Below are positions 6,294 to 38,746 of a DNA stretch of 42,449 bases, piece by piece. The stretch's first letter is position 1; each line of letters starts with the position of its first letter. The notes under the pieces were generated by a model. The model was not told the DNA's origin, ran no database searches, and saw nothing but the letters and a program-made list of their open reading frames with translations. The stretch is from Eubacteriales bacterium (lineage in GTDB: Bacteria; Bacillota; Clostridia; Oscillospirales; CAG-272), in NCBI GenBank assembly GCA_048527645.1, contig DBGFNI010000116.1, positions 1-42,449 on the forward strand, given 5' to 3'. A program made the position numbers and the translations under genes.

Positions 6294-6356
6294 TGCTTCT
6301 TGACAAACTGCCTGCAATCATAGAATGTCATAGAAAGATTGAAAGAAGTGAACAGA

Positions 6357-13848: not shown

Positions 13849-14400
13849 TTAATTTGCCGCGATTTTCACATGCGGGCGAACCAGAATCAGCAGCGGCACC
13901 GCGATTGTTGCCATCACAACCGCACTGATGGCGCCGGTGCCAAGACGGACAAAGAAATCGCCGAACACATATGCCCAGGAATAATAGCCGTACAGCTTGC
14001 TGTCTACAAAATTGACCGCCGTATTACCAAGGGTGGTAAGCAGTCCGCCGGCAATGCACGCACCGTACATAAAGTGGGGCTTGCGCTCCAGCGCAACCGC
14101 CTTTTTCCGGTAAAATGCTCCGGCGACCAAGCCGACCGTCAGCGCGTACAGCATAGGCGGAATCAGATACAGAACCGTCGTCGCCGTAAAGCCGTAGGAC
14201 AAAAGCTGGTTGAGCAGCTCACCGCACGCCGCGATAATGCATCCGTCCACCGCTGAAAACAGCGTGGCGCTAACCACAAGCGTCAAAAACTTGAAGCCAA
14301 TATGCACATTTCCCAGTTTCAGCGTAAAGAGGCTCAGCACAAAGTACAGAGCGATCATCACCGCATCCAGAACCAATCTTTCCAATCGTTGTTTTGTCAT
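13849..14400 (-). CDS. folT: ECF-transporter substrate-binding (S) component, folate family
   Basis: 183 aa with about 6 TM helices and S-component-like composition. It lies directly downstream of a THF riboswitch. The start is set at the ATG (14400) preceded by GGAGAGG. The 70 upstream codons in the ORF track are the riboswitch read as protein. Confidence 0.8.
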   Translation of the reverse strand: MTKQRLERLVLDAVMIALYFVLSLFTLKLGNVHIGFKFLTLVVSATLFSAVDGCIIAACGELLNQLLSYGFTATTVLYLIPPMLYALTVGLVAGAFYRKKAVALERKPHFMYGACIAGGLLTTLGNTAVNFVDSKLYGYYSWAYVFGDFFVRLGTGAISAVVMATIAVPLLILVRPHVKIAAN

Positions 14401-14520
14401 AAAAATATACCTCTCCAATATGATATTTTGACAATATTCGTTGCAGTCGTTGTCCTGCAAACAATATTGCCGGAGAGGCATATCGTTTATCATAGAACAG
14501 CGGGATGCGACGTTTGTACC

Positions 14521-14610
14521 GCAAGGAGACGGATGGTGTCCCGCGCCTTTTCGTTTCCGGATCAACTCCCCGTTCCCGGAACACTTAACGCACAAACATC
14601 TACTCTGCAT
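14521..14610 (-). promoter_or_regulatory. THF (tetrahydrofolate) riboswitch aptamer
   Basis: The minus-strand RNA reads 'GCAGAGUAGAUGUUUGUGCGUUAAGUGUUCCGGGAACGGGGAGUUGAUCCGGAAACGAAAAGGCGCGGGACACCAUCCGUCUCC'. It follows the recalled THF-riboswitch sequence block by block: GAGUAGAUG..GCGUUAAGUGU..GAA(U/C)GGG..CGAA..GCGCGG..CAUCCG.CUCC. Downstream, 'CCUCUCC' (14471-14480 region) can pair with the SD 'GGAGAGG' (14410-14416). Confidence 0.85.
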
Positions 14611-17341: not shown

Positions 17342-19015
17342 TTACGATCCGAAGTGCGGCGGAAATTCATCCATATACTCCGCCAACTGGTAAACATGGA
17401 TATAATCAATAATATACGCCGTGAAATCGCCTTTTTCATAGTCGGCGCGTACCTCATCCTCCGTCATGCCGAATTTGGTCGGATCAAACCAAATCTGATT
17501 CGTGTTCGGCCAGGTATCATCCGCATAATAGCAGCTGAGGAAGATCATCGAGGGCGCCTCGCTCAAAGGCGTCTCCGGGAAGGTACCGATCAGGTTTCCG
17601 TCGTAATAAATCGCATATCCTTCCTGCGTCCACAGATAGCCAACCGTGTGGAACTGCCCATCAAAGAAAGACGAATCGGGAATCGCATATGCCATTTCGG
17701 TGGCAGTATCGCTCCGTTTCATGCGGTTTCCGAGGATGTACCACTGATCGCTCTGATACGGCAACCCCTCCACATTCCAGTGCCCTGTGGAGAAAAACTT
17801 GCCGCGCTGTTCATCGAATGTTCCGGTTGCTACCGTCTCGTGCGGCAGCGTCTCAAAAATATCCATCTCCACAAACGGCTTTGTCTGTGCCGGGTTGTCC
17901 GCCTCATAATAGCGATCCGCACCGACTGAAACCGTCCAGAAGGTCGAAATGAATCCGGCAGCCTGAGAAGGCTTGAAGCGAATCTCATAATAACCGTATG
18001 TCTGATTGAATCTGCCGTTGCCCGTATCGAGTCCGGCAATTCCGTTGTTGTGGTTGATACCGTTGTCAACCTCGTCGTCCTCGTCGTCATCATAATAATG
18101 CTCGGGATAGGTGCCGGTCATATACAGCATACCATCCTGTGTGTACATACGCTCGGACAAGGGCAACTGCCAGTATGGTTTATTCTCTGTCTCCGCGTCC
18201 GGGTATTCTTGTTTGCCCCAGATATCGTCGCGCCAGCCCTGCTTGCCCTCGCCGTCAAAGTCCTCGATCATCGTGGGCACCAGCTGAAGCGCCGGATCCA
18301 GATAGCACTGCCAGGTACTGGAATAATAGCGGTACAGCCGCTCTGCCAGCACGGCAATCTGCGCACGCGTCGCCTTGCCGTTGGGTCGGAAATTGCCGTT
18401 GTCGCCCTGATACAGTCCGATCGCCGTCATTGTGCTGACTGCCGTCTGTGCCCATTTGCCGATCTGTGCGGCGTCGTGGTATGTCTGTGCCAAATCCACG
18501 CGCGCCTCGCTCAAATCCACCTTGAAATACTGTGTGAGCAGATTGTACAGCAGCTGGGCGATCTGCTCCCGGGTGATGGAGGCATCGGGCGCCATGATGC
18601 CACCGCCCATGCCGCCGATCACGCCGTTTTCATATGCCCATGTCATCGCATCCATGTACCATGCGCCGTCGTGCAGATCTGTGAACGGCAGCGTCTGCGT
18701 TTCCACGCTCATGTCCCGCTCCAGATTCTTCACCAGATTATAGCACAGCTGGGTGTACATTGCGCGGGTCATGTCGCGATCCGGCTCAAACGCACGCACG
18801 TTGCCCAGTCCCGACATGATGCCGTTTGCCACGCACCAGTAGATCCCGTCATAGCTCCATCCCGCCTGATCTGACGCGCTCTTGGGCACGTCGCGCAGAT
18901 AGACATATTTTTTGTAGTTGGGTTCGTACCACGCGCCGGCAAACGACGCCAGGGTGCCGACGAGCAGCGCGGCTGTCAGCAGCACCGCCAAAATTTTTTT
19001 TGCGGTATGTTTCAT
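17342..19015 (-). CDS. SLH-anchored GH16-family glycoside hydrolase (beta-glucanase-like), paralog 1
   Basis: Signal peptide 'MKHTAKKILAVLLTAALLVGTLASFAGA' and three SLH repeats. GH16 jelly-roll motifs: 'GYYEIRFKP', catalytic E-x-D-x-x-E 'EMDIFE', and 'FHTVGYLWTQEGYAIYYDG'. Confidence 0.8.
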   Translation of the reverse strand: MKHTAKKILAVLLTAALLVGTLASFAGAWYEPNYKKYVYLRDVPKSASDQAGWSYDGIYWCVANGIMSGLGNVRAFEPDRDMTRAMYTQLCYNLVKNLERDMSVETQTLPFTDLHDGAWYMDAMTWAYENGVIGGMGGGIMAPDASITREQIAQLLYNLLTQYFKVDLSEARVDLAQTYHDAAQIGKWAQTAVSTMTAIGLYQGDNGNFRPNGKATRAQIAVLAERLYRYYSSTWQCYLDPALQLVPTMIEDFDGEGKQGWRDDIWGKQEYPDAETENKPYWQLPLSERMYTQDGMLYMTGTYPEHYYDDDEDDEVDNGINHNNGIAGLDTGNGRFNQTYGYYEIRFKPSQAAGFISTFWTVSVGADRYYEADNPAQTKPFVEMDIFETLPHETVATGTFDEQRGKFFSTGHWNVEGLPYQSDQWYILGNRMKRSDTATEMAYAIPDSSFFDGQFHTVGYLWTQEGYAIYYDGNLIGTFPETPLSEAPSMIFLSCYYADDTWPNTNQIWFDPTKFGMTEDEVRADYEKGDFTAYIIDYIHVYQLAEYMDEFPPHFGS

Positions 19016-19107
19016 GAAAAATCCTCCTGATTCTATTCACAACGCCGAAAAGACGCCGTTATGGGTTTCACTCCGAGGCCAGCGCCCCGATGGCTTCCGT
19101 ATAATAT
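18228..19107 (-). repeat. copy A of a ~0.88-kb direct repeat (offset 1729 nt)
   Basis: Covers the 5' half of GH16 paralog 1, its upstream spacer and the first 40 nt (3' end) of paralog 2. It aligns by eye, nearly base for base, with 19957-20836 apart from scattered substitutions and one 11-nt indel (19048-19058 region, 'gccgaaaagac'). Confidence 0.85.
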
Positions 19108-20744
19108 GCGGGAACTTCATTTCCGTAATAATTCGGTGCATACTCCTCTGTATACTCTGCCAGCTGATACACATGCACATAATCAATCACAAACTGGGAG
19201 ATACCGTTTTCGTCGAAATCTTCCCGATAGCAATCTCCGTTGTACGGGCGCTCCGCGTCGGTATTCCAATAATAAAGGTTCAGACGCAACACCGCAGACA
19301 TGTCAGACAGCGGTGCCCGTGAAAAATCGCCTGCGTAATTTCCATCATACCAAACCTGATAGCCGTCTTTCGTCCACAGAAAGCCAACCGTGTGATACTT
19401 TCCGTCAAACATGGAGGAATCGGGAATGAAATACGGATTGTCCTGCTCACGCTCCAGACACATTTTATTGTGTGCGACATACTGATGCATTTGCTTTTCG
19501 GAGGAGTTACCCTGCCAGTGGTTCCAATGCAGCGTGGTTGTGAGCTTATCGCCCTTGATCGGCACCTGCACATTATTCCGGCTGGTTTCGAAAATGTCCA
19601 TTTCAATAAAGTTTTCATACGGGTCAAGCTCGCTGACATCGACATCCTGCGCAGGATTGCCCGAACCGTCGGTCGGCCACTGGGGATACCCGTGCGCATT
19701 GGTGGTCAGCCACCACGCGGAACATATCGCACGCGCGGGGCAGGGCTTGAACCGGATTTCATAATAGCCAAAGGACTGTGAAAATTTATTTGGAACATCG
19801 TGCCCGCTGAACAAACCGCAGATACCGTTATCATTCGTGTTGTTGTCTCCGGGCCAGTAAGCGTTCATGTACAGATTTCCGTCCTGCGTATACATCCGTT
19901 CCTCCTCCGCAGGCAAAAACGACGCGGAAGAATAGGAGCATGGCGTCCAGAAATTGTCGTTCCAGCCCTGCTTGCCTTCGCCGTCAAAGTCCTCGAGCAT
20001 CGTGGGCACCAGTTGAAGCCCCGGATCCAGATAGCATTCCCAGGTTCTGGAATAATAGCGGTACAGCCGCTCCGCCAGCACGGCGATCTGCGCACGCGTC
20101 GCCTTGCCGTTGGGTCGGAAATTGCCGTTGTCGCCCTGATACAGTCCGATCGCCGTCATTGTGCTGACTGCCGTCTGTGCCCATTTGCCGATCTGTTCGG
20201 CGTCGCGGTACGTCTCGGTCAAATCCACGCTCGCCTCGCTCAAATCCACCTTGAAATACTGCGTAAGCAGGTTGTACAGCAGCTGCGCGATCTGCTCACG
20301 GGTTATGGATGCGTCAGGCGCCATGATGCCGCCGCCCATGCCGCCGATCACGCCGTTTTCATATGCCCACGTCATTGCCTCCATATACCATGCGTCGTCG
20401 TTCAGATCGGTAAACGGCAGCGTCTGCGTCTCCACGCTCATGTCCCGTTCCAAATTCTTCACCAAATTATAGCAAAGCTGCGTATACATCGCGCGGGTCA
20501 TGTCTCGATCCGGCTCAAACGCGCGCACATTGCCCAGTCCCGACATGATGCCGTTTGCCACGCACCAATAGATCCCGTCGTAGCTCCATCCCGCCTGATC
20601 GGACGCGCTCTTGGGCACGTCGCGCAGATAGACATATTTCTTATAGTTGGGTTCGTACCACGCGCCGGCAAACGACGCCAGGGTGCCGACGAGCAGCGCG
20701 GCTGTCAGCAGCACCGCCAATATTTTTTTTGCAGTATGTTTCAT
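19068..20744 (-). CDS. SLH-anchored GH16-family glycoside hydrolase, paralog 2
   Basis: The first 114 residues are identical to paralog 1. There are about a dozen substitutions through residue ~255, after which the catalytic half is diverged. It keeps 'GYYEIRFKP', 'EMDIFE' and 'YHTVGFLWTKDGYQVWYDG'. Confidence 0.8.
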   Translation of the reverse strand: MKHTAKKILAVLLTAALLVGTLASFAGAWYEPNYKKYVYLRDVPKSASDQAGWSYDGIYWCVANGIMSGLGNVRAFEPDRDMTRAMYTQLCYNLVKNLERDMSVETQTLPFTDLNDDAWYMEAMTWAYENGVIGGMGGGIMAPDASITREQIAQLLYNLLTQYFKVDLSEASVDLTETYRDAEQIGKWAQTAVSTMTAIGLYQGDNGNFRPNGKATRAQIAVLAERLYRYYSRTWECYLDPGLQLVPTMLEDFDGEGKQGWNDNFWTPCSYSSASFLPAEEERMYTQDGNLYMNAYWPGDNNTNDNGICGLFSGHDVPNKFSQSFGYYEIRFKPCPARAICSAWWLTTNAHGYPQWPTDGSGNPAQDVDVSELDPYENFIEMDIFETSRNNVQVPIKGDKLTTTLHWNHWQGNSSEKQMHQYVAHNKMCLEREQDNPYFIPDSSMFDGKYHTVGFLWTKDGYQVWYDGNYAGDFSRAPLSDMSAVLRLNLYYWNTDAERPYNGDCYREDFDENGISQFVIDYVHVYQLAEYTEEYAPNYYGNEVPAYYTEAIGALASE

Positions 20745-20836
20745 GAAAAATCCTCCTAAATTCTATTCACAATGCCGTTATACGGTGTTTCACTCCGAGG
20801 CCAGCGCCCCGATGGCTTCTGTATAATATGCGGGAG
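19957..20836 (-). repeat. copy B of the ~0.88-kb direct repeat
   Basis: Covers the 5' half of GH16 paralog 2, its upstream spacer and an orphan 47-nt GH16 3'-end fragment. See copy A. Confidence 0.85.
20790..20836 (-). pseudogene. orphan 3'-terminal fragment of a third SLH-GH16 copy
   Basis: 'tcactccgaggccagcgccccgatggcttctgtataatatgcggga' differs at one position from 19068-19113, which is the stop codon plus the last 14 codons ('PAYYTEAIGALASE') of paralog 2. No ORF body follows. The fragment ends 3 nt from the GRE stop codon. Confidence 0.8.
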
Positions 20837-20839
20837 CTG

Positions 20840-23203
20840 TCAGCAGGAAATGCACGTGGATTTCAAATCCAGGCGTTTGATGATATCCTGCTGAATTGCA
20901 GGGGACAAATCCAGAAAATTGACAAAGGTGCCATGAATCCGCATGATATATACGCCGCTGGGCGCATACTTTTCCGGATCCGCCAAAACCTTGCGTAGAA
21001 TTTCCGGGGTTGTGACATTGACATACAGATAGAATGGGCTGACGCGCTCGGTGTTTTTCTCATTGAAAAACAGCGGCGCGATGACACGCTCATAAAATTG
21101 CAACCCCTTTTCTGCATCGGTTTTGCCGTTGAAATACTGTGGGTCAATGCCCAGATGAGAAGCATACCCGCCGCTCATCTTTTCAAACGGCAGCTCCATA
21201 TTGGAAAGCATGCGGAAGCCTAAACCGTTTTCTGCGCTACCCCACAGTGGATCGACGCCGTAATTCACCATTTCGCGGGACTTTCTGCCGTCCGGCGTTG
21301 CACCGACCCAGTATCCGTACAGCAGATGTGTGGACGGGCTGCTGAAATCAGGGCGAAAGGCATTGCCCAAATTGTTTTTGAGCGAGGCAACAATATCAGC
21401 CGCACGGTTTGTCACCTCCGCGCACTCGCGGTCAACGCCCTCGATGTGATTGCCAAATTTGTCTGCGTCCAACAAAAACTGATGCAGCTGCTCATACCCC
21501 TCAAAGTTCGCGCGCAGCGCGGGCAAGAGCTGATCTTGCCATTCCGGCTTCTCTGCAAGCAATCTGTCAATGGCAACAAGACTGTCCGCCACCACGGAAA
21601 CGCCGTGAATCAGGCATCCGCTGCCGTTATATTTCGTTCCCTGCCGCGTCACATCGCGCACATCAATGCCGCTCTCCACACCGCCCATGACACAGGAGAG
21701 AAACGGAACGCGCAAATGGGACAGCGCTGCGGTCGCACCGTTTGCCGATTTCGCCATCGACGCGGCAACGCGCTCCACATTGCGCCAGTATACCTGCCGC
21801 ACTGCATCCAGCGGCGCTTGCTCTAAGTCAAGCAATTTCTTTCCCGTGATCAGCGAGGTTCCGCCCGTCAGCGTCAACTCCAGAATCTTTGGGAGATTCA
21901 GCCAGCTGTTGGTCGTGTTCCCGTTGTCCTTTCCCATGATCAGCGGTTCCTGACAGCCGGCAACGGAGGTATCCTTGATGTCGGTCAGCGCCACGCCGCG
22001 TCTGCCCATGATGGAAAACAGCGAATCATCGTTGAACAGCGACGGGGTCAGCACACCGGCGCCGAAGAAGAAACGTCCCATCTCCTCATACAGCTTTTTG
22101 GGTGTGTTCTGATGCAGCTTCACTGACAGAATCGGCTGCGGCAGATTCATATCGTAATACGCATCCAAAAGGGCGTAACTGCATTCATTGGTCAAATCAC
22201 AGCCGTTCTCGTCTCTGCCGCCGATCAGCACATTCTGCGAAATCGCCCAGCTGCGATCTGCCACATTGAAGAACACCAGAAAATGACGGAACAGCGCGGC
22301 AGCCTCCTCGCGGGTCATTTCACCGCGGTACGGCTCAAAAATCCGATCTGCGTTGCCGACGGAGAAGGCAAAGGGATTGGGCGCCTGCTCCAGACACATG
22401 CACTGCCACAGCAGCAAAAAGGACTGAATTGCCTCAAACAGATTCTCCGCGCCGTGCGCAGGCACCTTTTCCAGCGTGTCTGCCAGCAGCTGCAACTGTG
22501 CGCGTCGCGCCTCCCCTGCCTGCTCCATCTGTGTCAGTGCAAGCTCGCGGTAGCGGCGTGCAAAGATCAGTGGCGCCTCCAGCGCCTTGGCGAAGGCTTC
22601 AAAGCCGCGCTTTTTCTGTGCATCCTGTTCGGTCTGCGCCTTTGCAAGCAGGTCATCTCGCGTCTTGCACACGCCGTTTTTCAAAAGCGGGCGCATGTCA
22701 GGAATCAGATGCCCCGTCACCTGCTCCACAAAATAAGCAACCTCTTCCGTATAGGGCTCTGCCTCTTCGTAAACCTTGGTCAGATTGGCAACATATGCGC
22801 TGCGGCGGCTCTTTTCCCGCACCGCGTCAATCCGCTCCTGCGTGATGGTTTCATCCGGTTCAATGTCGCCGAACACCGCAGTCGGATCGCAATATCCGCT
22901 GAACTCTTCCACCTTGAAGGAAGGATTAATCAGCGCGTAGCTCCGTGCAAACGCATCATCCTGTGTGCCGGCAAACACATGGTTCTCCGTCAGCTCCAGC
23001 GGCAGCATCTGCGCAATCTCGCACAGCGCTGCGGCAGCCGCATACTCTTCCCCTTTTTCCAGATATTTTTCCTTTGCGGGATAAAACGCCTCCTGCGCCA
23101 AAAACCATCCGTCCAGACGAGTCTTTGCACGCTCGTGGCGGAACAAACGCTTTGCCATTTGAATCAGTTCTTCTGTTTTGTATACCTTGTTCATCGTGAT
23201 CAT
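20840..23203 (-). CDS. glycyl radical enzyme, PFL2/glycerol-dehydratase-like class, substrate unknown
   Basis: About 787 aa. Catalytic loop 'VAGCQEP' (Cys-x-Glu, as in eliminase-type GREs). 'ATPDGRKS'. 'NLPKILELTLTGG'. C-terminal glycyl-radical segment 'YIMRIHGTFVNFLDLS'. The start is ambiguous: ATG 23203 or 23194, with SD AAGGAG just upstream. The ORF-track start 23317 lies inside the activase gene. Confidence 0.88.
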   Translation of the reverse strand: MITMNKVYKTEELIQMAKRLFRHERAKTRLDGWFLAQEAFYPAKEKYLEKGEEYAAAAALCEIAQMLPLELTENHVFAGTQDDAFARSYALINPSFKVEEFSGYCDPTAVFGDIEPDETITQERIDAVREKSRRSAYVANLTKVYEEAEPYTEEVAYFVEQVTGHLIPDMRPLLKNGVCKTRDDLLAKAQTEQDAQKKRGFEAFAKALEAPLIFARRYRELALTQMEQAGEARRAQLQLLADTLEKVPAHGAENLFEAIQSFLLLWQCMCLEQAPNPFAFSVGNADRIFEPYRGEMTREEAAALFRHFLVFFNVADRSWAISQNVLIGGRDENGCDLTNECSYALLDAYYDMNLPQPILSVKLHQNTPKKLYEEMGRFFFGAGVLTPSLFNDDSLFSIMGRRGVALTDIKDTSVAGCQEPLIMGKDNGNTTNSWLNLPKILELTLTGGTSLITGKKLLDLEQAPLDAVRQVYWRNVERVAASMAKSANGATAALSHLRVPFLSCVMGGVESGIDVRDVTRQGTKYNGSGCLIHGVSVVADSLVAIDRLLAEKPEWQDQLLPALRANFEGYEQLHQFLLDADKFGNHIEGVDRECAEVTNRAADIVASLKNNLGNAFRPDFSSPSTHLLYGYWVGATPDGRKSREMVNYGVDPLWGSAENGLGFRMLSNMELPFEKMSGGYASHLGIDPQYFNGKTDAEKGLQFYERVIAPLFFNEKNTERVSPFYLYVNVTTPEILRKVLADPEKYAPSGVYIMRIHGTFVNFLDLSPAIQQDIIKRLDLKSTCISC

Positions 23204-23211
23204 TGCTCCTT

Positions 23212-23913
23212 TTAGGTCTGTATCAATTGAATGCCGTCTGCGCGCAGCGCCTGTGCAAAGGCGTCTATCTGCGCCGCGGACACAAAACCGTCTGTGACGG
23301 TATACGGTTTTTCCCATTTGTCCCGTCCGTACTCATGATAGGGCAAGATTTCCACCTGCAAATGCGAACGGTTGCAGGTGTTGAAAAATGCAACGAAGGG
23401 TGTGGGATCCGTGTTGATATGATTGATCAGGGGGATGCGAACCAAAATATCCTTTCCGTTCTGTGTCAATTTGCGGATGTTTTCCCGGGTCTGCTCCCCA
23501 TCGTTTCCGGTATACCGGCGGTGCCGTTCCCCGTCCGCCAGCTTGCAGTCGACAATCAGATAATCAATCAGCGGTGCAAGCTCCGTCAGGCGCGGGTGCG
23601 AGCCGTTTGTTTCCAGGCAGGTGTGGATGCTTGCCTCGCGCAGCAATATCAGGCACTGTCGCAGCTGATCAAACTGCAGGGTTGCCTCTCCGCCGGTGAA
23701 GGTCACGCCCCCGCCGGAAAAAAACATCATTTCCGACCGCTTGGCAAGGTGCACAATTTCTTCCGGCGTCATTTCCCGCCGCTGTGTGCATATCTCCATG
23801 CTTTCGGGATTGGAGCACCAGGGACAGTGAAAATTGCAGCCCTGGGTGTGAATCACCAGACGGTTGCCCGGTCCATCCTGAGAAAAATTGAAGCCGGTTG
23901 TTAAGATATTCAT
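23212..23913 (-). CDS. glycyl-radical enzyme activating protein (radical SAM), short PflA-type
   Basis: 'DGPGNRLVIHTQGCNFHCPWCSNPES' carries the CX3CX2C cluster motif, and 'GVTFTGGEATL' is the SAM-binding motif. The protein is 233 aa with no additional CxxCxxCxxxC ferredoxin-type motifs. Confidence 0.9.
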   Translation of the reverse strand: MNILTTGFNFSQDGPGNRLVIHTQGCNFHCPWCSNPESMEICTQRREMTPEEIVHLAKRSEMMFFSGGGVTFTGGEATLQFDQLRQCLILLREASIHTCLETNGSHPRLTELAPLIDYLIVDCKLADGERHRRYTGNDGEQTRENIRKLTQNGKDILVRIPLINHINTDPTPFVAFFNTCNRSHLQVEILPYHEYGRDKWEKPYTVTDGFVSAAQIDAFAQALRADGIQLIQT

Positions 23914-23917
23914 GCCG

Positions 23918-25057
23918 TCACAAGCCCATAATATCGTAGGTCAGATCGCGAACCGGCGCATGCATCTCCAAAGGGTCCGGCCAGTTCTGCACATGCTGCA
24001 TGTATACAATGCTCAGATGCGTTTGAGGATCGCAAAGCAAATATGCGCCCGCGGCACCGTCCCATCCGAACTCACCCAAAGAACTGCGTTGGCCGTCGCT
24101 GCGGTCTGTCAGAACGCGCACGCCCAAGCCGTAACTGTAGCCCGGACCGGCTGAGCAGCAGAATGCGGGATTTTTCAAAAGCTTGTGCAGTTGCTCGGTT
24201 CGCATCTGCTCCACGGTTTTCTCCTCCAGTATCCGAGCGCCGTTTGCACCGCAGCCACCGCATGCCATTGCGTCCGCAAAGCGGGCGTAATCCTCCGTGG
24301 TACTGATAAGTCCCGCGCCGCCGCTCTGATAATCGCGGTTGAACACAAAGACGTTTCCGTTGCCGTCCACCTGATCCATGCCGTTTTCGCCCCAGTAGCG
24401 GTATTGCTCCACCATGTTGTCCGGCACCTCGCCCTTTTTGGCAAAATAGGTGTGCTCCATGCCCAGCGGGGCAAAAATATTCTCCCGGAGAAAATCGCCG
24501 AACCGCATGCCGCTGACGCTTTCGATCACCGCGCCCAGCACATCGTGGCACAGGCTGTATTCGTAGCGCTCACCCGGCCGAAACAGCAGCGGATCCCGGG
24601 CAAACGCGCTGACCACCTCCAAAGTCGAAGCTTCCGGCTTTCGTGCGAGCAGTGCGCGAACCGCGGGACGATCCAACTGATAATCCAGCCCGGCGCTCAT
24701 GGTGAAGAGATGACGAACCGTCATTTCCTCTCCCACGCAGATTTTTTCACCGTTTTCCACCACAAAAGCGTCGCGGAAGGCAGGCAGATAATTGCCCACC
24801 GGCGCGTCCAGTTCCAGTTGCCCCCGCTGCACCAGCAGCATGGCTCCCGTCACAGTGATCGGCTTGGAGCAGGAATACAAATAGTACGCCGCCTTGTCTG
24901 TCAGCGGTTTAGTTTTTTCCAGATCCGCAGTTCCCGTAATATAGCGGAAAATCTGCTCGTGCTCCCGATAGATCAGCACATCGCATCCGGGCGCCGCGCC
25001 CTTTGCGCATACATTGTCCATCCAGTTTTTCAGTCTTTGAAAATCATACATATACAT
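23918..25057 (-). CDS. beta-lactamase-fold serine hydrolase (class C/EstB-like)
   Basis: S-x-x-K nucleophile motif in 'YLYSCSKPITVTG', plus 'GGAGLISTTEDYARF' and a C-terminal 'FGWDGAAGAY' box. The gene ends 4 nt before the activase start. Confidence 0.8.
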   Translation of the reverse strand: MYMYDFQRLKNWMDNVCAKGAAPGCDVLIYREHEQIFRYITGTADLEKTKPLTDKAAYYLYSCSKPITVTGAMLLVQRGQLELDAPVGNYLPAFRDAFVVENGEKICVGEEMTVRHLFTMSAGLDYQLDRPAVRALLARKPEASTLEVVSAFARDPLLFRPGERYEYSLCHDVLGAVIESVSGMRFGDFLRENIFAPLGMEHTYFAKKGEVPDNMVEQYRYWGENGMDQVDGNGNVFVFNRDYQSGGAGLISTTEDYARFADAMACGGCGANGARILEEKTVEQMRTEQLHKLLKNPAFCCSAGPGYSYGLGVRVLTDRSDGQRSSLGEFGWDGAAGAYLLCDPQTHLSIVYMQHVQNWPDPLEMHAPVRDLTYDIMGL

Positions 25058-25190: not shown

Positions 25191-25219
25191 ATTTTACCAT
25201 TTCCGACAGCAAATTGCAA
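25191..25219 (-). promoter_or_regulatory. sigma-A-type promoter of the hydrolase-activase-GRE operon
   Basis: On the minus strand: TTGCAA (25219-25214), 17-nt spacer, TAAAAT (25196-25191). It lies just downstream of the cbp terminator. Confidence 0.6.
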
Positions 25220-25244: not shown

Positions 25245-25279
25245 AAAAAGCCGCAGCGGCTTGCATGTGCCGCTGCGGC
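25245..25279 (-). terminator. intrinsic terminator of cellobiose phosphorylase gene
   Basis: 11-bp stem gccgcagcggc / gccgctgcggc (25250-25260 with 25269-25279). On the minus strand it is followed by TTTTTCTGTAAAAAAA. Confidence 0.85.
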
Positions 25280-25297
25280 TCAAAGCTGCCTTGCGCC

Positions 25298-31927: not shown

Positions 31928-32094
31928 TTTATGCATTTTTTCGGTGAAAAGACAGTGTGCGTTCCGTTACAATATAAGCAGGAACCTCTCACACCCCCGA
32001 TCGGGCGGCGCGGGCAGCCGGTGTTCCGGCGCTGTCGCGTCACCGGCCGTCCGGACAGTTTATGCCGCCGCAAAGCTGCGGAAAGGAGACAAGC

Positions 32095-32802
32095 ATGCCT
32101 TATTCCATTTATATCGCCGATGACGAAAAAAACATCCGGGATCTGATCAAAAGCTTTTTGGAAAGCGACGGTTACCGCGTCTCGGAATTTGCAACCGGGG
32201 ACGAGCTGCTGGCGGCGTTCCGAGAGGAGCCGGCAGATCTTGTGATTCTGGACATCATGATGCCGGGCACCGACGGACTGAGCATTTGCCAGACGCTGCG
32301 CAAGGAAACGGATGTGCCGATCATCATGCTGACGGCACGGGATTCGGAATTTGACTATGTGCAGGGGATCACGCTGGGAAGCGACGATTATCTGACCAAG
32401 CCGTTCCGTCCCACGGTTTTGCTGATGCGTGTGCGCGCGCTGCTCAGAAGAAGCGAAATGGGCAGCAAAAAATCCGCTGATCCGAGCGGTGCAGATTGCC
32501 GGGTCGGCAACCTGATCTATTCCGCCGAGGCAAACGCCATTCTGTGCGGCAGCAGCGAGATCCCCTTCACCAAAATTGAGTTGAAGCTGCTCTCCTATAT
32601 GATGCAAAAGCCGGAAAAGGCCTATTCCCGTGAGGAACTGCTGGAAAAAATCTGGGGATTTGAAACGGAAGTGGAGACACGCGTCACCGACGAGACGCTG
32701 CGCCGCATCCGCAGAAAGCTCTCCCTTGCGAAAAGCAGCGTCAGCATTCAGACCGTTTGGGGATTCGGCTATCGGCTGCAAATCGCGGAGGATGCAAAAT
32801 GA
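32095..32802 (+). CDS. OmpR/PhoB-family response regulator
   Basis: Receiver 'IYIADDEKNIRDL...DLVILDIMMPGTDG...LTARD...DDYLTKPF'. Winged-helix 'LLEKIWGFE...RVTDETLRRIRRKL...IQTVWGFGYRL'. SD AAGGAGA before ATG 32095. Confidence 0.92.
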   Translation: MPYSIYIADDEKNIRDLIKSFLESDGYRVSEFATGDELLAAFREEPADLVILDIMMPGTDGLSICQTLRKETDVPIIMLTARDSEFDYVQGITLGSDDYLTKPFRPTVLLMRVRALLRRSEMGSKKSADPSGADCRVGNLIYSAEANAILCGSSEIPFTKIELKLLSYMMQKPEKAYSREELLEKIWGFETEVETRVTDETLRRIRRKLSLAKSSVSIQTVWGFGYRLQIAEDAK

Positions 32803-34034
32803 AACATATCAAAGGCAAAATCATCACCGTCATTTTGCTGTCCATCCTGCTCGTTTTTCTGACCTCCGTCGCGCTGGTCAACATCATGCTCCCGCACCGC
32901 TTTGAAAACGAAGCGAAACGCACGCTGGAATATGAAATTGACTATATCAACCGCTTCCCTTCCACCGCTGATCTGGAAAAGGACTTTGACGTTCTCGAAC
33001 AATATCTTGACAGCTATGAGGGCGGTTATTTCAGCGGCGACATTTCTTTCATCGACCTATCCGACAATTCCGGCTACAGCACAGGCTTTAACTCCAATGC
33101 CAATTTTGCGGAAATCGAGCTGCGCGACTACTGTGCCACGCATACCGTGAAAAACGAGACGTGTTACCGCTTGCGCACCAAACGCGGCTATTACATTTTT
33201 CTCCGATACGAGGAACAGCCCTTTGACGGTACAGAGACGACCGCGCCGATGCTCATGTATATCAATTTGCAGCCGATCATACAATACTTTCATTATCTCA
33301 ACCGGTTTTTCATCTTCGTGTTTCTCGGCATCGCCGTGGTCATGGGCGCCATCGGCTACCGTCTGGGCAAGATGATCGAGGACGCGCAGCAGACGCAAAG
33401 CCGCTTTTTTCAAAATTCGTCCCACGAGCTGAAAACGCCGCTGATGGCAATTCAGGGATACGCAGAGGGCATCCAGACCGGCGTCATCGACAGCCGCGTC
33501 GGCGCCGAGGTGATTTTGCAGGAAAGCGACCGCATGACGCGGCTGGTGGAGGAGCTGCTCTTTGTCTCCAAAATCGACTCGCACCGTCTGACGCTCAACT
33601 GCACGGGATGGGATGTGCGGGACATTCTGTATGACTGTCTGGAGTCCGTAACGCTGCTTCAGCAAAAGGAGAATATCCAGCTCATTCCCGACTTCACGGA
33701 GAGCAGCGTTGTGATCAGCTGCGACGAGGAGCAGCTGAGAAGAGCGTTTTTGAACATCCTGGTCAACGGTCTGCGGCACTGCAAAACCACGCTCACCGTT
33801 TCCTGCCAAGCAGAGAAAAATGACGTGGTCATTCGATTTGCAGACGACGGGGACGGCATTGCAGAGAAGGATCTGCCGCATATTTTCGACCGGTTCTATT
33901 CCGGGAGAAACGGGATCACCGGCATCGGTCTTGCACTCGCTTCGGAAATCGTGCATCTGCACCGGGGAACCATCACCGCACGCAACAGCGAAACCGGCGC
34001 CGTGTTTGAAATCCGCCTGCCGTTGGCAAAATGA
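32799..34034 (+). CDS. sensor histidine kinase (two TM, ~150-aa extracytoplasmic loop)
   Basis: H-box 'FFQNSSHELKTPLMAIQGYAEG'. N-box 'LNILVNGLRH'. G-boxes 'DDGDGIAEKDLPHIFDRFY' and 'GIGLALASEIV'. ATGA overlap with the regulator stop. SD GGAGGA. Confidence 0.9.
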   Translation: MKHIKGKIITVILLSILLVFLTSVALVNIMLPHRFENEAKRTLEYEIDYINRFPSTADLEKDFDVLEQYLDSYEGGYFSGDISFIDLSDNSGYSTGFNSNANFAEIELRDYCATHTVKNETCYRLRTKRGYYIFLRYEEQPFDGTETTAPMLMYINLQPIIQYFHYLNRFFIFVFLGIAVVMGAIGYRLGKMIEDAQQTQSRFFQNSSHELKTPLMAIQGYAEGIQTGVIDSRVGAEVILQESDRMTRLVEELLFVSKIDSHRLTLNCTGWDVRDILYDCLESVTLLQQKENIQLIPDFTESSVVISCDEEQLRRAFLNILVNGLRHCKTTLTVSCQAEKNDVVIRFADDGDGIAEKDLPHIFDRFYSGRNGITGIGLALASEIVHLHRGTITARNSETGAVFEIRLPLAK

Positions 34035-34160: not shown

Positions 34161-35684
34161 ATGACCAAAAACGTATTATGCTATCTGGAAGCGTCCGCGG
34201 CAGCATTCCCGCAGAAGACCGCCGCGGCGGACGGCGCGGCAAGTCTTACCTTCTCCGACTTGCAGGAGCGCTGCGCCCGAATCGGCAGCGCCCTTGCCCG
34301 GGCCGGCGTCTGCCCCCGCGACGCGGTTGCAGTCTTCGCAGAGAAGAACACCGACGCCCTGTGCGCGATGCTGGGCGCCGTATATGCCGGCGGGTTCTAC
34401 TCGGTTTTCAGCACAGAACTGCCGCAACCCCGCCTGGAACAGATCGCGCAGGTTCTTTGCCCGAAGGTCATTGTCACCACCTGCGAGCTGCTGCAAACAG
34501 CGCAGCAGTATTTCCCGCACGCGGTGCTGTGCACCGTGGAGGCGCTTGCGCAGCAGGCGCCCGATCGCGCCCGGCTCGCTGCCATCCGCGGGCAGATGAT
34601 TGACACCGATCCGCTGTATGTCAACTTCACCTCCGGCTCCACAGGTACGCCGAAGGGGATTGTCGTCTCACACCGCAGTGTCATTGATTTTATCGGCTGC
34701 TTTACGGAGATTTTCGGGTTTTCCGCGCAGGATGTCATTGCCAATCAGGCGCCGTTTGATTTTGACGTATCGGTCAAGGACATCTATTCTGCAATGAAGA
34801 CCGGCGCCACGCTGCTGATTGTCCCGCGCCCGCTTTTCTCCGCGCCGGCTCAGCTGGTGGACTTTCTGTGCGCGCAGGGCGCGACCGCGATGATCTGGGC
34901 GGTCTCGGCGCTGTCGCTGCTTAGCACCTTTCACGCGCTGGATTACAAAACGCCGCAGAGCGTAAACAAAATCCTGTTCAGCGGCGAGGTCATGCCGTAC
35001 AAAGTGCTGCGGGATCTGCAGGCGCACCTGCCAAACGCGCTGTATGCAAATCTTTACGGTCCGACCGAAATCACCTGCAACTGTACCTATCATATTCTGC
35101 AAAAAGAGCGGGACTATTCCGCCGGCATCCCGATCGGCATCGCCTTTCCCAATGAGGATGTTTTTTTGCTCGATGCGGACAACCGTGCGCTGCGCGGTGC
35201 CGGCGAGACGGGAGAAATCTGCGTGCGCGGTTCGGCGCTGGCACTCGGCTATTACGCCGCCCCGGAGCAAACCGCTCGGCATTTTGTGCAAAATCCTCTG
35301 AACACGGCATACGCGGAGACCGTATATCGCACCGGGGATCTGGGCGCCTACAATGAAAACGGCGAGCTGATTTTCCGCGGGCGCAAGGATTTTCAAATCA
35401 AATATATGGGGCACAGGATCGAACTGGAGGAAATTGAGCGAGCTATGGCAGGCATCGCGGGCGTCGCAAGCTGCTGCTGCACGTTCGATGAAAAAAAGGA
35501 ACGGTTGTACGGCTTTTATGTCGGCAGCATCGACAAACAAACGCTGCACACGGTGATGAAGCAAAGCCTGCCCGCCTTTATGGTTCCCGGCTTTTTGCGC
35601 CGGGTGGAAGCGATGCCGCTGACCAAAAACGGAAAAATCGACCGAAAAATGCTATCGGAAAGCGCGGTGAAAAAGACATCTTGA
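34161..35684 (+). CDS. DltA-like amino-acid adenylation enzyme (carrier-protein ligase)
   Basis: 507 aa. AMP-binding core 'LYVNFTSGSTGTPKGIVVSH'. A4-type 'APFDFDVSVKDIY'. 'LYGPTE'. 'YRTGDLG'. 'GRKDFQIKYMGHRIELEEIE'. 'LPAFMVP...LTKNGKIDRK'. Confidence 0.85.
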   Translation: MTKNVLCYLEASAAAFPQKTAAADGAASLTFSDLQERCARIGSALARAGVCPRDAVAVFAEKNTDALCAMLGAVYAGGFYSVFSTELPQPRLEQIAQVLCPKVIVTTCELLQTAQQYFPHAVLCTVEALAQQAPDRARLAAIRGQMIDTDPLYVNFTSGSTGTPKGIVVSHRSVIDFIGCFTEIFGFSAQDVIANQAPFDFDVSVKDIYSAMKTGATLLIVPRPLFSAPAQLVDFLCAQGATAMIWAVSALSLLSTFHALDYKTPQSVNKILFSGEVMPYKVLRDLQAHLPNALYANLYGPTEITCNCTYHILQKERDYSAGIPIGIAFPNEDVFLLDADNRALRGAGETGEICVRGSALALGYYAAPEQTARHFVQNPLNTAYAETVYRTGDLGAYNENGELIFRGRKDFQIKYMGHRIELEEIERAMAGIAGVASCCCTFDEKKERLYGFYVGSIDKQTLHTVMKQSLPAFMVPGFLRRVEAMPLTKNGKIDRKMLSESAVKKTS

Positions 35685-36862: not shown

Positions 36863-36868
36863 CACATT

Positions 36869-37099
36869 ATGGAACAACTGCTTGCAATTTTAGAGGATAT
36901 TCAACCGGATATTGATTATACCGCCTGCGAAGGACTCATCGACGATCACCTGCTCGACTCGCTGTCGATCATTTCGCTTGTCGCAGAGCTGGAGGACGCG
37001 TTTGACATCACCATCCCCGCGGTGGAGGTCATCCCGTCGAATTTCAATTCCGCACAGGCAATGTGGAGCATGATTCAGCGTCTGCAAGAGGAGGAGTAA
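36869..37099 (+). CDS. DltC-like acyl/aminoacyl carrier protein
   Basis: 76 aa and acidic. Phosphopantetheine site 'DDHLLDSLSIISLVAELEDAF', with layout like D-alanyl carrier proteins. Confidence 0.85.
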   Translation: MEQLLAILEDIQPDIDYTACEGLIDDHLLDSLSIISLVAELEDAFDITIPAVEVIPSNFNSAQAMWSMIQRLQEEE

Positions 37100-37100
37100 C

Positions 37101-38735: not shown

Positions 38736-38746
38736 AGGAGGTTATT

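What the first reader, a model, noticed from the sequence alone, without database searches (positions are those of the whole stretch)
20840..25057. Operon of a beta-lactamase-fold serine hydrolase, a minimal (PflA-size) activase and a divergent PFL2-class glycyl radical enzyme
Seen in the sequence: three minus-strand genes separated by 4 nt and about 8 nt, with one consensus-like promoter (25191-25219) and no internal terminators.
- The GRE keeps the eliminase-type catalytic loop 'GCQEP' (Cys-x-Glu) and 'ATPDGR'.
- Its glycyl-radical segment reads 'MRIHGTFVNF' instead of the usual 'RV(A/S)G(Y/F)S'.
- Its N-terminal third is only loosely PFL2-like.

Established knowledge: activases of characterised PFL2-class enzymes (CutD, HypD-AE, glycerol dehydratase AE, HpdA) are about 300 aa and carry a Cys-rich ferredoxin-like insert after the CX3CX2C motif. 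This activase is 233 aa and has no such motif, so it resembles PflA.

Inference: a serine hydrolase (esterase/amidase) translationally coupled to an AE-GRE pair suggests a two-step route. An ester or amide conjugate would be hydrolysed to release the alcohol or amine substrate of a radical elimination. I cannot assign the substrate from sequence. No transporter, microcompartment or aldehyde-processing genes are adjacent.
Basis: partly seen in the sequence, partly recalled or inferred. Interest (0 to 1): 0.65.

Follow-up and report, generated by a model that had tools for sequence, protein, structure and literature searches.

The report
Uncharacterised glycyl radical enzyme with short activase
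The three genes are real, but the radical enzyme and its unusually small activator belong to a large, unstudied family of gut Clostridia enzymes that normally sit beside a sugar kinase and a sugar isomerase, whereas the esterase-like neighbour occurs only in this bacterium and its sister species.

Summary
**Observation: confirmed.**
- Three minus-strand genes lie between a strong terminator with a promoter-like site and a downstream SLH-gene array.
- They encode a family VIII esterase-like serine hydrolase (379 aa), a 233-aa radical-SAM activase without a ferredoxin insert, and a 784/787-aa PFL-like glycyl radical enzyme (GRE).
- The GRE motifs GCQEP, ATPDGR and RIHGTF are present and invariant in homologues.

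**Interpretation: partly supported.**
- The GRE matches no characterised GRE. All NCBIfam equivalog scores are far below their cut-offs, and identity to solved GRE structures in the fold search is 14-23%.
- It belongs to a clade found in at least 527 species genomes of gut Clostridia.
- In that clade the conserved operon is short activase, GRE, FGGY kinase, PMI-like isomerase. The kinase follows in 74/75 loci and the isomerase in 69/70.
- The hydrolase is adjacent in 1 of 65 loci.

**Most likely function.** This is a radical C-O-cleaving enzyme (Cys-x-Glu plus the dehydratase His) acting on a carbohydrate-derived substrate. The hydrolase link is lineage-specific and unproven.

**Worth noting.** Relatives show a stepwise loss of the activase's ferredoxin domain.

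The parts
25248..25281 (-). Intrinsic terminator of the upstream GH94 phosphorylase gene; upstream boundary of the unit
   Evidence: 13-bp stem with 10 GC pairs followed by a T run
25191..25219 (-). Promoter-like site (TTGCAA, 17 nt, TG-n-TAAAAT) about 134 nt upstream of the hydrolase ATG
   Evidence: 9/12 consensus match with an extended -10 TG. This is a consensus match only. The 5'UTR has no Rfam hit and its fold z-score is -1.63.
23918..25057 (-). Cytoplasmic family VIII carboxylesterase-like serine hydrolase (beta-lactamase fold), 379 aa
   Evidence: PF00144, 201 bits. Best PDB hits are esterases 7pp3, EstU1 (4ivi), Est-Y29 and EstB. Motifs: S62-x-x-K65, Y167, W332-x-G. No signal-peptide-like N-terminus. 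Class C beta-lactamase models score far below their cut-offs.
23212..23913 (-). Radical-SAM GRE-activating enzyme, 233 aa, with the radical-SAM core only (no ferredoxin-like insert)
   Evidence: PF04055 and PF13353. TIGR02494 157.6 bits in two stretches that skip the profile's insert region; TIGR02493 147 bits. CX3CX2C at C26/C30/C33 and no other Cys motif. Directly upstream of the GRE in 70/71 related loci.
20840..23203 (-). Glycyl radical enzyme of the PFL-like/PFL2 class, 787 aa (784 aa if it starts at 23194)
   Evidence: PF02901, 316 bits. Aligns to glycerol dehydratase 1r8w over residues 160-778, E = 5e-51. Foldseek TM 0.63-0.68 to all PFL2-class GREs.
22709..22711 (-). His165, aligned with the general-acid His164 of glycerol dehydratase and with a His of HypD, in the invariant EQVTGHLIPD
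   Evidence: role of GD His164 from PMC13450708
21896..21961 (-). Cys loop AGCQEPLIMGKDNGNTTNSWLN (Cys417-x-Glu419), invariant in the clade
20873..20944 (-). Glycyl-radical segment MRIHGTFVNFLDLSPAIQQDIIKR. Gly758 aligns with GD Gly763.
20787..20838 (-). 52-nt copy (96% identical) of the 3' end of the downstream SLH gene, abutting the GRE stop codon. This is a rearrangement scar at the position where relatives carry the kinase gene.
   Evidence: Repeat family D3; sequence

Best explanation
**What it is**
- The locus is a transcription unit of a pig-gut Clostridia chromosome.
- Its core is an orthologue of a very widespread but uncharacterised GRE system, consisting of a ferredoxin-less radical-SAM activase and a GRE of about 785 aa.

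**How it most likely works (inferred from the family's chemistry)**
1. The activase uses its single [4Fe-4S]/SAM site to abstract a hydrogen atom from Gly758.
2. The glycyl radical generates a thiyl radical on Cys417.
3. The thiyl radical abstracts hydrogen from a hydroxyl-bearing carbon of the substrate.
4. Glu419 deprotonates that hydroxyl and His165 protonates the neighbouring oxygen leaving group.
5. The result is C-O cleavage, either dehydration or ring-opening isomerisation.

**Likely substrate class**
- Orthologues are almost always followed by an FGGY kinase and a class-I PMI-like isomerase, and often flanked by sugar regulators, sugar ABC permeases or a GH38 mannosidase.
- The substrate is therefore most likely a sugar, polyol or anhydro-sugar, with its carbon fed into glycolysis through phosphorylation and aldose-ketose isomerisation.

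**What differs in the window**
- In the window's lineage the kinase and isomerase genes are not adjacent; SLH/GH16-like genes follow instead.
- A family VIII esterase-like hydrolase gene is fused upstream with a 4-nt gap.
- The hydrolase may trim an acylated precursor, but the linkage arose once, so it could equally be a neutral gene-order accident.

**Shown versus inferred**
- Shown: gene structure, motifs, family membership, synteny statistics and purifying selection.
- Inferred: the chemistry, the substrate class and any role for the hydrolase.
For: **A distinct clade**
- Catalytic Gly, Cys-x-Glu and His are invariant in 16 aligned homologues and align with GD G763, C433/E435 and H164.
- At least 527 species genomes encode a relative.
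- In the 50%-identity representative library, bit scores fall from 1045 to about 290 within the group sharing AGCQEP and R[IV]HG. They then drop to about 230 or less for generic PFL2 proteins with GCVEP and RVAGYS.

**Synteny in the 80 best loci**
- The activase is present in 70/71 loci, the FGGY kinase in 74/75 and the PMI-like gene in 69/70.
- Gaps between the GRE and the kinase gene are mostly 9-15 nt.

**Sugar context around relatives**
- A ROK-type regulator lies directly upstream in 7 loci, and a GH38 gene overlaps the PMI stop in 14 loci.
- P0003: ROK, AP_endonuc_2 and FAD_binding_2 genes nearby.
- P0241: FGGY, activase, GRE, GntR, Fe-ADH, MFS.
- P0253: ABC sugar permeases, GRE, FGGY, long activase.
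- P0264: DeoR, activase, GRE, RuBisCO-like, transketolase-like, SIS, PfkB.

**The window's copy is functional and unchanged in its catalytic parts**
- pN/pS is 0.20 against the sister species and 0.03 within the species.
- Only 22 of 429 columns conserved in the main clade differ in the window's subclade, and none lies in the catalytic loops.

**The unit has its own terminator and promoter boundary**.
Against: - No biochemical data exist for any member, and I found no paper on this clade. The substrate is therefore unknown.
- The kinase and isomerase could act before or after the GRE.
- The window lacks the kinase and isomerase, so the pathway inferred from relatives may be incomplete or rewired here.
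- The AF2 model is only moderate (pLDDT 69.6) and is poor in the catalytic loops. Pocket geometry was therefore not inspected.
- The Gly segment fails PF01228.
- Co-transcription is not shown. Metatranscriptome contigs gave only short fragments from related organisms.
Confidence: 0.7

Rival explanations
1. **The first reader's model.** The serine hydrolase and the GRE form an obligatory two-step route. The hydrolase cleaves an ester or amide conjugate and releases the alcohol or amine that the GRE then eliminates.
For: - The hydrolase and activase genes are 3-4 nt apart in both species that carry the trio.
- The arrangement has survived until synonymous sites are saturated (pS 0.72-0.82), with the hydrolase under purifying selection (dN/dS about 0.09).
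- The hydrolase is a cytoplasmic family VIII carboxylesterase type with intact SxxK, Tyr and WxG motifs.
- Neighbouring genes are glucan-degrading (GH94, SLH-GH5, SLH-GH16-like), so acetylated sugars are a conceivable substrate.
Against: - The hydrolase is adjacent in 1 of 65 related loci, and only in two sister species, which is one evolutionary event.
- The downstream SLH genes, which are obviously unrelated in function, are conserved in the same two species. Gene order alone therefore explains the persistence.
- Homologues at 50-56% identity occur next to pyrimidine-biosynthesis genes or AraC and GFO/IDH genes, with no GRE nearby.
- The GRE's catalytic and conserved positions are unchanged relative to relatives that lack the hydrolase. 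This argues for the same substrate with or without it.
Confidence: 0.25
2. **Neutral adjacency.** A rearrangement placed the activase-GRE pair behind a housekeeping esterase gene and in front of an SLH-gene array. The kinase and isomerase genes were moved elsewhere or lost. The hydrolase is co-transcribed but functionally independent.
For: - A 52-nt remnant of an SLH-gene 3' end abuts the GRE stop codon, exactly where relatives carry the kinase gene.
- Upstream neighbours differ between the two species: GH94 in the window, flavodoxin and a sigma factor in L081.
- The hydrolase family is common in these bacteria in many different contexts.
Against: - The 3-4-nt hydrolase-activase spacing is conserved in both species.
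- No separate promoter for the activase-GRE pair was seen in the window.
- This model cannot be distinguished from functional linkage by sequence alone.
Confidence: 0.5
3. **A known enzyme.** The GRE is a member of an already characterised family, such as glycerol or propanediol dehydratase, HypD, CutC, a sulfonate lyase, the PflD/YbiW anhydrohexitol-phosphate isomerases, or PFL.
For: - The best sequence and fold match is B12-independent glycerol dehydratase (177 bits; Foldseek E = 5e-27).
- It shares the CxE motif and the His.
Against: - All NCBIfam equivalog scores are 42-189 bits against cut-offs of about 1000. Even the PFL2 subfamily model scores 241 against a cut-off of 678.
- Identity to solved GRE structures in the fold search is 14-23%, and the fold scores are nearly equal for all of them.
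- GD substrate-contact positions are replaced. H281/S282 correspond to F278/A279, and D447 to T431 (alignment; residue roles from my own knowledge).
- No BMC, aldehyde dehydrogenase or PTS context is present.
Confidence: 0.04
4. **A decaying remnant.** The activase-GRE pair in this lineage is an orphan that is degenerating after losing its kinase and isomerase partners.
For: The kinase and PMI genes are absent from the whole 42-kb window and from the flanks of the sister-species loci.
Against: - The ORFs are intact in two species.
- pN/pS is 0.20 between species and 0.03 within the species.
- All catalytic motifs are retained.
Confidence: 0.05

Closest known systems
B12-independent glycerol dehydratase (Clostridium butyricum DhaB1, PDB 1r8w) and other C-O-cleaving GRE 1,2-eliminases (PD, HypD)
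   Same: - Same GRE fold.
- The radical Gly, Cys-x-Glu and general-acid His align: G758/G763, C417/C433, E419/E435, H165/H164.
   Different: - About 23% identity.
- The Cys loop carries Gln instead of Val (GCQEP).
- His precedes the radical Gly, and Thr replaces the aromatic residue after it (RIHGTF against RVAGYS).
- Pocket positions differ.
- The activase lacks the ferredoxin domain.
- The context is a sugar kinase and isomerase, not diol or aldehyde genes or a BMC.
GRE isomerases PflD/YbiW (1,5-anhydromannitol-6-P and 1,5-anhydroglucitol-6-P ring opening; PDB 8id0, 8yjo, 8id7)
   Same: - PFL2-class enzymes with CxE that act on sugar derivatives within a sugar catabolic operon. This is the only precedent for carbohydrate-processing GREs (PMC13450708).
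- PflD aligns over almost the full length, residues 14-779.
   Different: - 166 and 90 bits only, at about 22% identity.
- Their partners are PTS and aldolase genes, according to my own knowledge. Here the partners are an FGGY kinase and a PMI-like isomerase.
- No NCBIfam or PDB score indicates orthology.
PFL-activating enzyme PflA (radical-SAM core only)
   Same: - Same size and architecture (233 aa).
- Same GxGxR...CX3CX2C N-terminal motif, with no auxiliary clusters.
   Different: - It scores 147 bits against the TIGR02493 cut-off of 232, and slightly better against the PFL2-type activase model TIGR02494 (157.6).
- Relatives show it derives from a ferredoxin-containing activase by loss of the insert.
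Family VIII carboxylesterases (EstU1 4ivi, Est-Y29 4p6b, EstB 1ci8, esterase 7pp3; NCBIfam AcmB methyl acetate hydrolase)
   Same: Beta-lactamase fold with SxxK, Tyr and WxG motifs, cytoplasmic, about 380 aa.
   Different: - Best hits are 169 bits (7pp3) and 141 bits against the AcmB cut-off of 550.
- The substrate is unknown, and it is not a class C beta-lactamase by score.

Membership tests
Glycyl radical enzyme superfamily (PFL-like, IPR004184/PF02901) | PFL-like catalytic barrel domain | tested here: met
   PF02901 316 bits, E = 7.5e-94. Foldseek probability 1.00 and TM 0.63-0.68 to solved GREs.
Glycyl radical enzyme superfamily (PFL-like, IPR004184/PF02901) | Conserved C-terminal radical Gly within the fingerprint RVxG[FWY]x6-8[IL]x4Qx2[IV]x2R (fingerprint recalled from my own knowledge) | tested here: inconclusive
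   Gly758 is invariant and aligns with GD Gly763. The L-x4-Q-x2-I-x2-R part is kept. However, the motif reads R-I-H-G-T-F, with no aromatic residue at G+1, and PF01228 gives no hit for this protein or any of the 120 closest homologues.
Glycyl radical enzyme superfamily (PFL-like, IPR004184/PF02901) | Catalytic Cys on the Cys loop | tested here: met
   Cys417 aligns with GD Cys433 and is invariant.
Glycyl radical enzyme superfamily (PFL-like, IPR004184/PF02901) | Dedicated radical-SAM activase encoded adjacently | tested here: met
   Present in the window and in 70/71 related loci.
Glycyl radical enzyme superfamily (PFL-like, IPR004184/PF02901) | Formation of a stable glycyl radical | not testable with these tools
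   Requires anaerobic reconstitution and EPR.
GRE 1,2-eliminases / isomerases (CxE class) | Cys-x-Glu motif on the Cys loop | tested here: met
   C417-Q-E419 is invariant. The motif is defined in PMC13450708.
GRE 1,2-eliminases / isomerases (CxE class) | Score at or above the NCBIfam PFL2-3 subfamily cut-off (TIGR01774) | tested here: not met
   241.4 bits against a cut-off of 678.2.
Characterised GRE equivalogs (GD, HypD, CutC, HpsG/HpfG, IAD, HPAD, PFL) | Score at or above the equivalog trusted cut-off | tested here: not met
   Best equivalog score is 189 bits against a cut-off of 1109. All others score lower.
PFL-activating enzyme (PflA, TIGR02493) | Radical-SAM core only, with CX3CX2C and no ferredoxin-like insert | tested here: met
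   233 aa. The only Cys motif is C26/C30/C33. Only these three Cys are conserved across 70 orthologues.
PFL-activating enzyme (PflA, TIGR02493) | Score at or above the equivalog cut-off | tested here: not met
   147.3 bits against a cut-off of 231.75.
PFL2-type GRE activases (TIGR02494 PFLE_PFLC) | Auxiliary ferredoxin-like domain with two CX2CX2CX3C motifs | tested here: not met
   Absent here. It is present in the activases of distant superclade members (P0253 and P0264 contexts) and reduced to 4 Cys in the P0241 and P0242 contexts. The score is 157.6 against a cut-off of 174.35.
Family VIII carboxylesterases / PF00144 serine hydrolases | Beta-lactamase fold with SxxK nucleophile motif, catalytic Tyr and WxG motif | tested here: met
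   PF00144 201.5 bits. S62-C-S-K65, Y167 and W332-D-G align with the corresponding motifs of esterase 7pp3.
Family VIII carboxylesterases / PF00144 serine hydrolases | Ester or amide hydrolase activity | not testable with these tools
   Needs an enzyme assay.
Class C beta-lactamase (resistance enzyme) | Score at or above the NCBIfam bla_class_C cut-off, and a secretion signal | tested here: not met
   45 bits against a cut-off of 415. The N-terminus MYMYDFQRLKNW... has no hydrophobic signal segment.
GRE-associated microcompartment (GRM) loci | BMC shell proteins and aldehyde dehydrogenase near the GRE | tested here: not met
   None in the 42-kb window or among the recurrent neighbours in 80 related loci.

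The most novel reading that the evidence does not exclude
**The reading**
- The RIHGTF/GCQEP clade (short activase, GRE, FGGY kinase, PMI-like isomerase) is a new, widespread anaerobic carbohydrate pathway of gut Clostridia.
- Its GRE catalyses a radical C-O cleavage on a sugar, polyol or anhydro-sugar that has not yet been described for any GRE.

**The activase series**
- The activase has dispensed with the auxiliary ferredoxin domain through a still-visible stepwise reduction: two CX2CX2CX3C motifs, then a 4-Cys remnant, then no insert.
- This gives a natural deletion series for testing what that domain does.

**The window's lineage**
- Here the system has been rewired behind an esterase, possibly to accept an acylated substrate.
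Probability: 0.45. Interest if true: 0.75.

Novelty: new variant of a known kind. Interest (0 to 1): 0.5.

Why it matters
**A clade without a function**
- GREs carry out key anaerobic reactions of gut microbes. The 2026 review (PMC13450708) stresses that whole clades still lack a function.
- This clade occurs in at least 527 species genomes from human and livestock guts.
- Its conserved four-gene operon points to sugar metabolism. The only sugar-processing GREs known so far are PflD and YbiW.

**The activase's ferredoxin domain**
- The same review states that nearly all non-PFL, non-RNR activases carry a ferredoxin-like domain of unknown function.
- Here a PFL2-class GRE works with an activase that has lost that domain.
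- Relatives preserve the intermediate stages, so the domain's role becomes directly testable by swapping activases among related GREs.

**The hydrolase**
- The hydrolase idea that made the locus look special is weak. Any value it has is limited to a lineage-specific rewiring.

Tried and rejected
**RNA evidence for co-transcription**
- Pig-gut metatranscriptome runs gave only 30-90-nt fragments at 90-95% identity from related organisms.
- Nothing spanned the gene junctions.

**Riboswitch or leader in the 134-nt 5'UTR**
- No Rfam hit reached even half of its family's gathering score, and the best E-value was 0.025.
- The fold z-score is -1.63.

**Structure-based pocket inspection**
- The AF2 model built from a 16-sequence alignment has pLDDT 69.6.
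- The Cys loop (413-433), Gly loop (753-761) and residues 621-668 are below pLDDT 50.
- I used the model only for fold assignment.

**Literature**
- No paper was found linking a GRE with an FGGY kinase or describing this clade.
- The primary PflD/YbiW paper is not in the library.

**Known functions and a resistance role**
- Assigning the GRE to a known function was rejected on NCBIfam and PDB scores.
- A beta-lactam resistance role for the hydrolase was rejected.

**Kinase and isomerase**
- Neither gene is in the window: tblastn at E = 1e-3 found none.
- Whether they exist elsewhere in the genome could not be checked.
- Both proteins have only remote solved relatives, at 26 and 52 bits. They do not reveal the sugar.

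Full report
**1. Observation**

The region holds three co-directional minus-strand ORFs:
- a 379-aa protein at 23918-25057;
- a 233-aa protein at 23212-23913;
- a long ORF ending at 20840.

The spacing is tight.
- The first two genes are 4 nt apart.
- The third gene starts at ATG 23203 (8-nt gap, 787 aa) or at ATG 23194 (17-nt gap, 784 aa).
- The 23194 start has the better distance from the AAGGAG Shine-Dalgarno sequence. It is also the start called for the 99%-identical database protein P0001.

Pfam assigns PF00144 (beta-lactamase fold) to the first protein, PF04055/PF13353 (radical SAM) to the second and PF02901 (PFL-like) to the third. The third protein has no PF01228 Gly_radical hit.

The quoted motifs are all present:
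- EQVTGHLIPD (160-169);
- AGCQEP... (415-436);
- ATPDGR (635-640);
- MRIHGTFVNF... (754-777).

The activase has only the CX3CX2C triad (C26/C30/C33).

Transcription signals:
- A strong terminator at 25281-25248 ends the upstream GH94 phosphorylase gene.
- Terminator-like hits inside the genes are short stems, and terminator-like hits overall are at chance frequency.

No BMC, aldehyde-dehydrogenase, transporter, FGGY-kinase or PMI gene for the system occurs in the 42-kb window.

**2. What the GRE is**

Against solved structures, the best match is B12-independent glycerol dehydratase (1r8w, 177 bits). PFL2 of Archaeoglobus, PflD, HypD and others follow.

In that alignment:
- Gly758 falls on the radical Gly763;
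- Cys417 and Glu419 fall on Cys433 and Glu435;
- His165 falls on His164, the general acid of the dehydratase according to PMC13450708.

HypD shares the same Gly-His.

The AF2 model is moderate (pLDDT 69.6, pTM 0.73). It matches every PFL2-class GRE about equally, with TM 0.63-0.68 and 14-23% identity.

All NCBIfam equivalogs are far below their cut-offs. The best scores 189 bits against 1109, and the PFL2 subfamily model scores 241 against 678. The protein is therefore a GRE of the Cys-x-Glu class but is not a member of any characterised family.

**3. The family**

The homologue search returned more than 120 clusters at 65-79% identity. They are about 774 aa long, all carry PF02901 only, and they are annotated as hypothetical or 'PFL family' in Clostridia MAGs.

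An alignment of 16 sequences shows the His segment, the whole Cys loop and the 30-residue Gly segment to be invariant.

Most are Acutalibacteraceae, Ruminococcaceae or Oscillospiraceae MAGs from human, pig, ruminant and horse guts. One cultured species, Sporanaerobium hydrogeniformans, is also among them.

In the 50%-identity representative library, the clade stands apart.
- Scores fall from 1045 to about 290 bits within a group that shares 'AGCQEP' and 'R[IV]HG'.
- They then drop to about 230 or less for ordinary PFL2 proteins with 'GCVEP' and 'RVAGYS'.

**4. Synteny test**

I clustered all ORFs of the 80 best loci.

| Gene | Position relative to the GRE | Loci with it / loci with enough DNA |
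|---|---|---|
| Short activase | directly upstream | 70/71 |
| FGGY kinase (~430 aa) | downstream, typically 9-15 nt | 74/75 |
| Class-I PMI-like cupin (~339 aa) | next downstream | 69/70 |
| Hydrolase | upstream of the activase | 1/65 (L001 only) |

- L001 is also the single locus that lacks the kinase and PMI-like genes.
- The kinase and isomerase are themselves divergent. They score XylB 83 bits and manA 77 bits, both below cut-off, and their best PDB hits are 26 and 52 bits.

Further context also points to sugar metabolism:
- A ROK-type regulator lies directly upstream in 7 loci, and a GH38 mannosidase gene overlaps the PMI stop in 14 loci.
- P0003 has ROK, AP_endonuc_2 and FAD_binding_2 genes nearby.
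- P0241 (59% identity) has FGGY, activase, GRE, GntR, Fe-ADH and MFS genes.
- P0253 (35%) has sugar ABC permeases, GRE, FGGY and activase.
- P0264 (32%) has DeoR, activase, GRE, RuBisCO-like, transketolase-like, SIS and PfkB genes.

The kinase link therefore holds at three depths of divergence.

**5. The hydrolase**

It is a cytoplasmic family VIII carboxylesterase-type protein.
- Its best PDB hits are esterases 7pp3, EstU1, Est-Y29 and EstB.
- The SxxK, Tyr and WxG motifs are aligned.
- Its best NCBIfam hit is AcmB methyl acetate hydrolase, at 141 bits against a cut-off of 550.
- Class C beta-lactamase models score far below their cut-offs.

Homologues at 50-56% identity are common in the same bacteria but sit in unrelated contexts.

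Searching from the hydrolase side, the order hydrolase, activase, GRE, SLH occurs only in two places:
- the window's own species (L083, 99% identical);
- one sister species (L001, L081, L095, L096; GRE 79%, hydrolase 64%).

That is one evolutionary event. The tight hydrolase-activase spacing is conserved in both species, but so is the obviously unrelated downstream SLH array. Conserved order alone therefore does not show a functional link.

A 52-nt copy of an SLH-gene 3' end abuts the GRE stop codon, where relatives have the kinase gene. This looks like a rearrangement scar.

**6. Is the window's GRE still the same enzyme?**

- pN/pS is 0.20 against the sister species and 0.03 within the species.
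- The hydrolase dN/dS is about 0.09.
- Of 429 columns that are at least 97% conserved in the main clade, only 22 differ in the subclade, and none lies in the His, Cys or Gly loops.

The enzyme is under selection and most likely keeps the family's substrate. This weakens the idea that the hydrolase defines a new substrate route.

**7. The activase**

Its architecture is like PflA, but it scores slightly better on the PFL2-type activase model with the insert region skipped.

Relatives show a reduction series:
- Activases next to distant superclade GREs (P0253, P0264) are 311-330 aa with two CX2CX2CX3C motifs.
- Those next to P0241 and P0242 (56-59%) are 288-298 aa, with an insert of about 50 aa that keeps 4 Cys.
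- The RIHGTF clade has no insert (233-234 aa), and only three Cys are conserved in 70 sequences.

The 2026 review states that only PFL-AE and RNR-AE lack the ferredoxin domain and that the domain's function is unknown. This clade is therefore a notable exception and a natural test system.

**8. Mechanism proposed**

This is inferred from the family's chemistry and is not shown here.
1. The activase makes the Gly758 radical.
2. A Cys417 thiyl radical abstracts hydrogen from a carbinol carbon of the substrate.
3. Glu419 acts as base and His165 as acid, promoting C-O cleavage (dehydration or ring opening).
4. The FGGY kinase and PMI-like isomerase of relatives connect the substrate or product to glycolysis.

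The substrate cannot be named. The PMI-like gene and the GH38 gene hint at mannose-related compounds, and PflD/YbiW are the nearest functional precedent.

**9. Verdict**

- The gene-level observation is correct.
- The hydrolase-coupled two-step route is not supported beyond a single lineage.

Novelty: a new variant of a known kind, namely an uncharacterised GRE clade with a ferredoxin-less activase. Interest is moderate.

Noticed in passing
window 20787-20838 and 19065-19116; genes 17342-19015 and 19068-20744: Two tandem paralogous SLH-domain, GH16-like genes form a repeat unit of about 1.73 kb. A 52-nt copy (96% identical) of the gene's 3' end sits immediately after the GRE stop codon. It looks like the remnant of a third copy or a recombination scar. 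A contig of run X8 also shows alternative joints here.
   Followed up: partly
window 14496-14609 (-): A THF riboswitch (RF01831, 83 bits) lies at the 5' end of the ECF-transporter S-component ORF 13849-14610. The real start codon of that (probably folate) transporter must therefore lie downstream of the riboswitch.
   Followed up: no
L101, L103, L089, L092, L079 (activase genes next to related GREs): The activases show stepwise reduction of the ferredoxin-like insert. Two CX2CX2CX3C motifs are present in activases of 311-330 aa. A 4-Cys remnant remains in those of 288-298 aa. No insert is left in those of 233-234 aa. The steps track GRE identity of 32-35%, 56-59% and at least 64%.
   Followed up: partly
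P0253, P0259, P0263, P0264, P0246 (representative library): A wider GRE superclade shares Gln in the Cys loop (AGCQEP) and His directly before the radical Gly (R[IV]HG). Its members sit in varied sugar-phosphate gene clusters, including one with a RuBisCO-like protein, a transketolase-like pair, SIS and PfkB genes.
   Followed up: partly
L010 12629-15094 and 13 other loci: A GH38 alpha-mannosidase gene overlaps the stop of the PMI-like gene by about 19 nt in 14 of the related loci. This extends the operon and hints at a mannose-related substrate.
   Followed up: no
window 34161-39712 (+): A gene set resembling a D-alanylation or O-acylation cluster follows a two-component system at 32062-34034. 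It comprises an AMP-binding enzyme, a PLP-dependent decarboxylase/racemase-like protein, an MBOAT and a weak GDSL-like match.
   Followed up: no
window 6339-10007 (+): A large (1222 aa) GH25 lysozyme-like protein carries six Listeria-Bacteroides repeat (Flg_new) domains.
   Followed up: no
L081 9879-10001; L095 and L096 about 6827-6950: In the sister species the activase and GRE genes are separated by about 121 nt, against 8-17 nt in the window. The hydrolase-activase gap stays at 3 nt.
   Followed up: no
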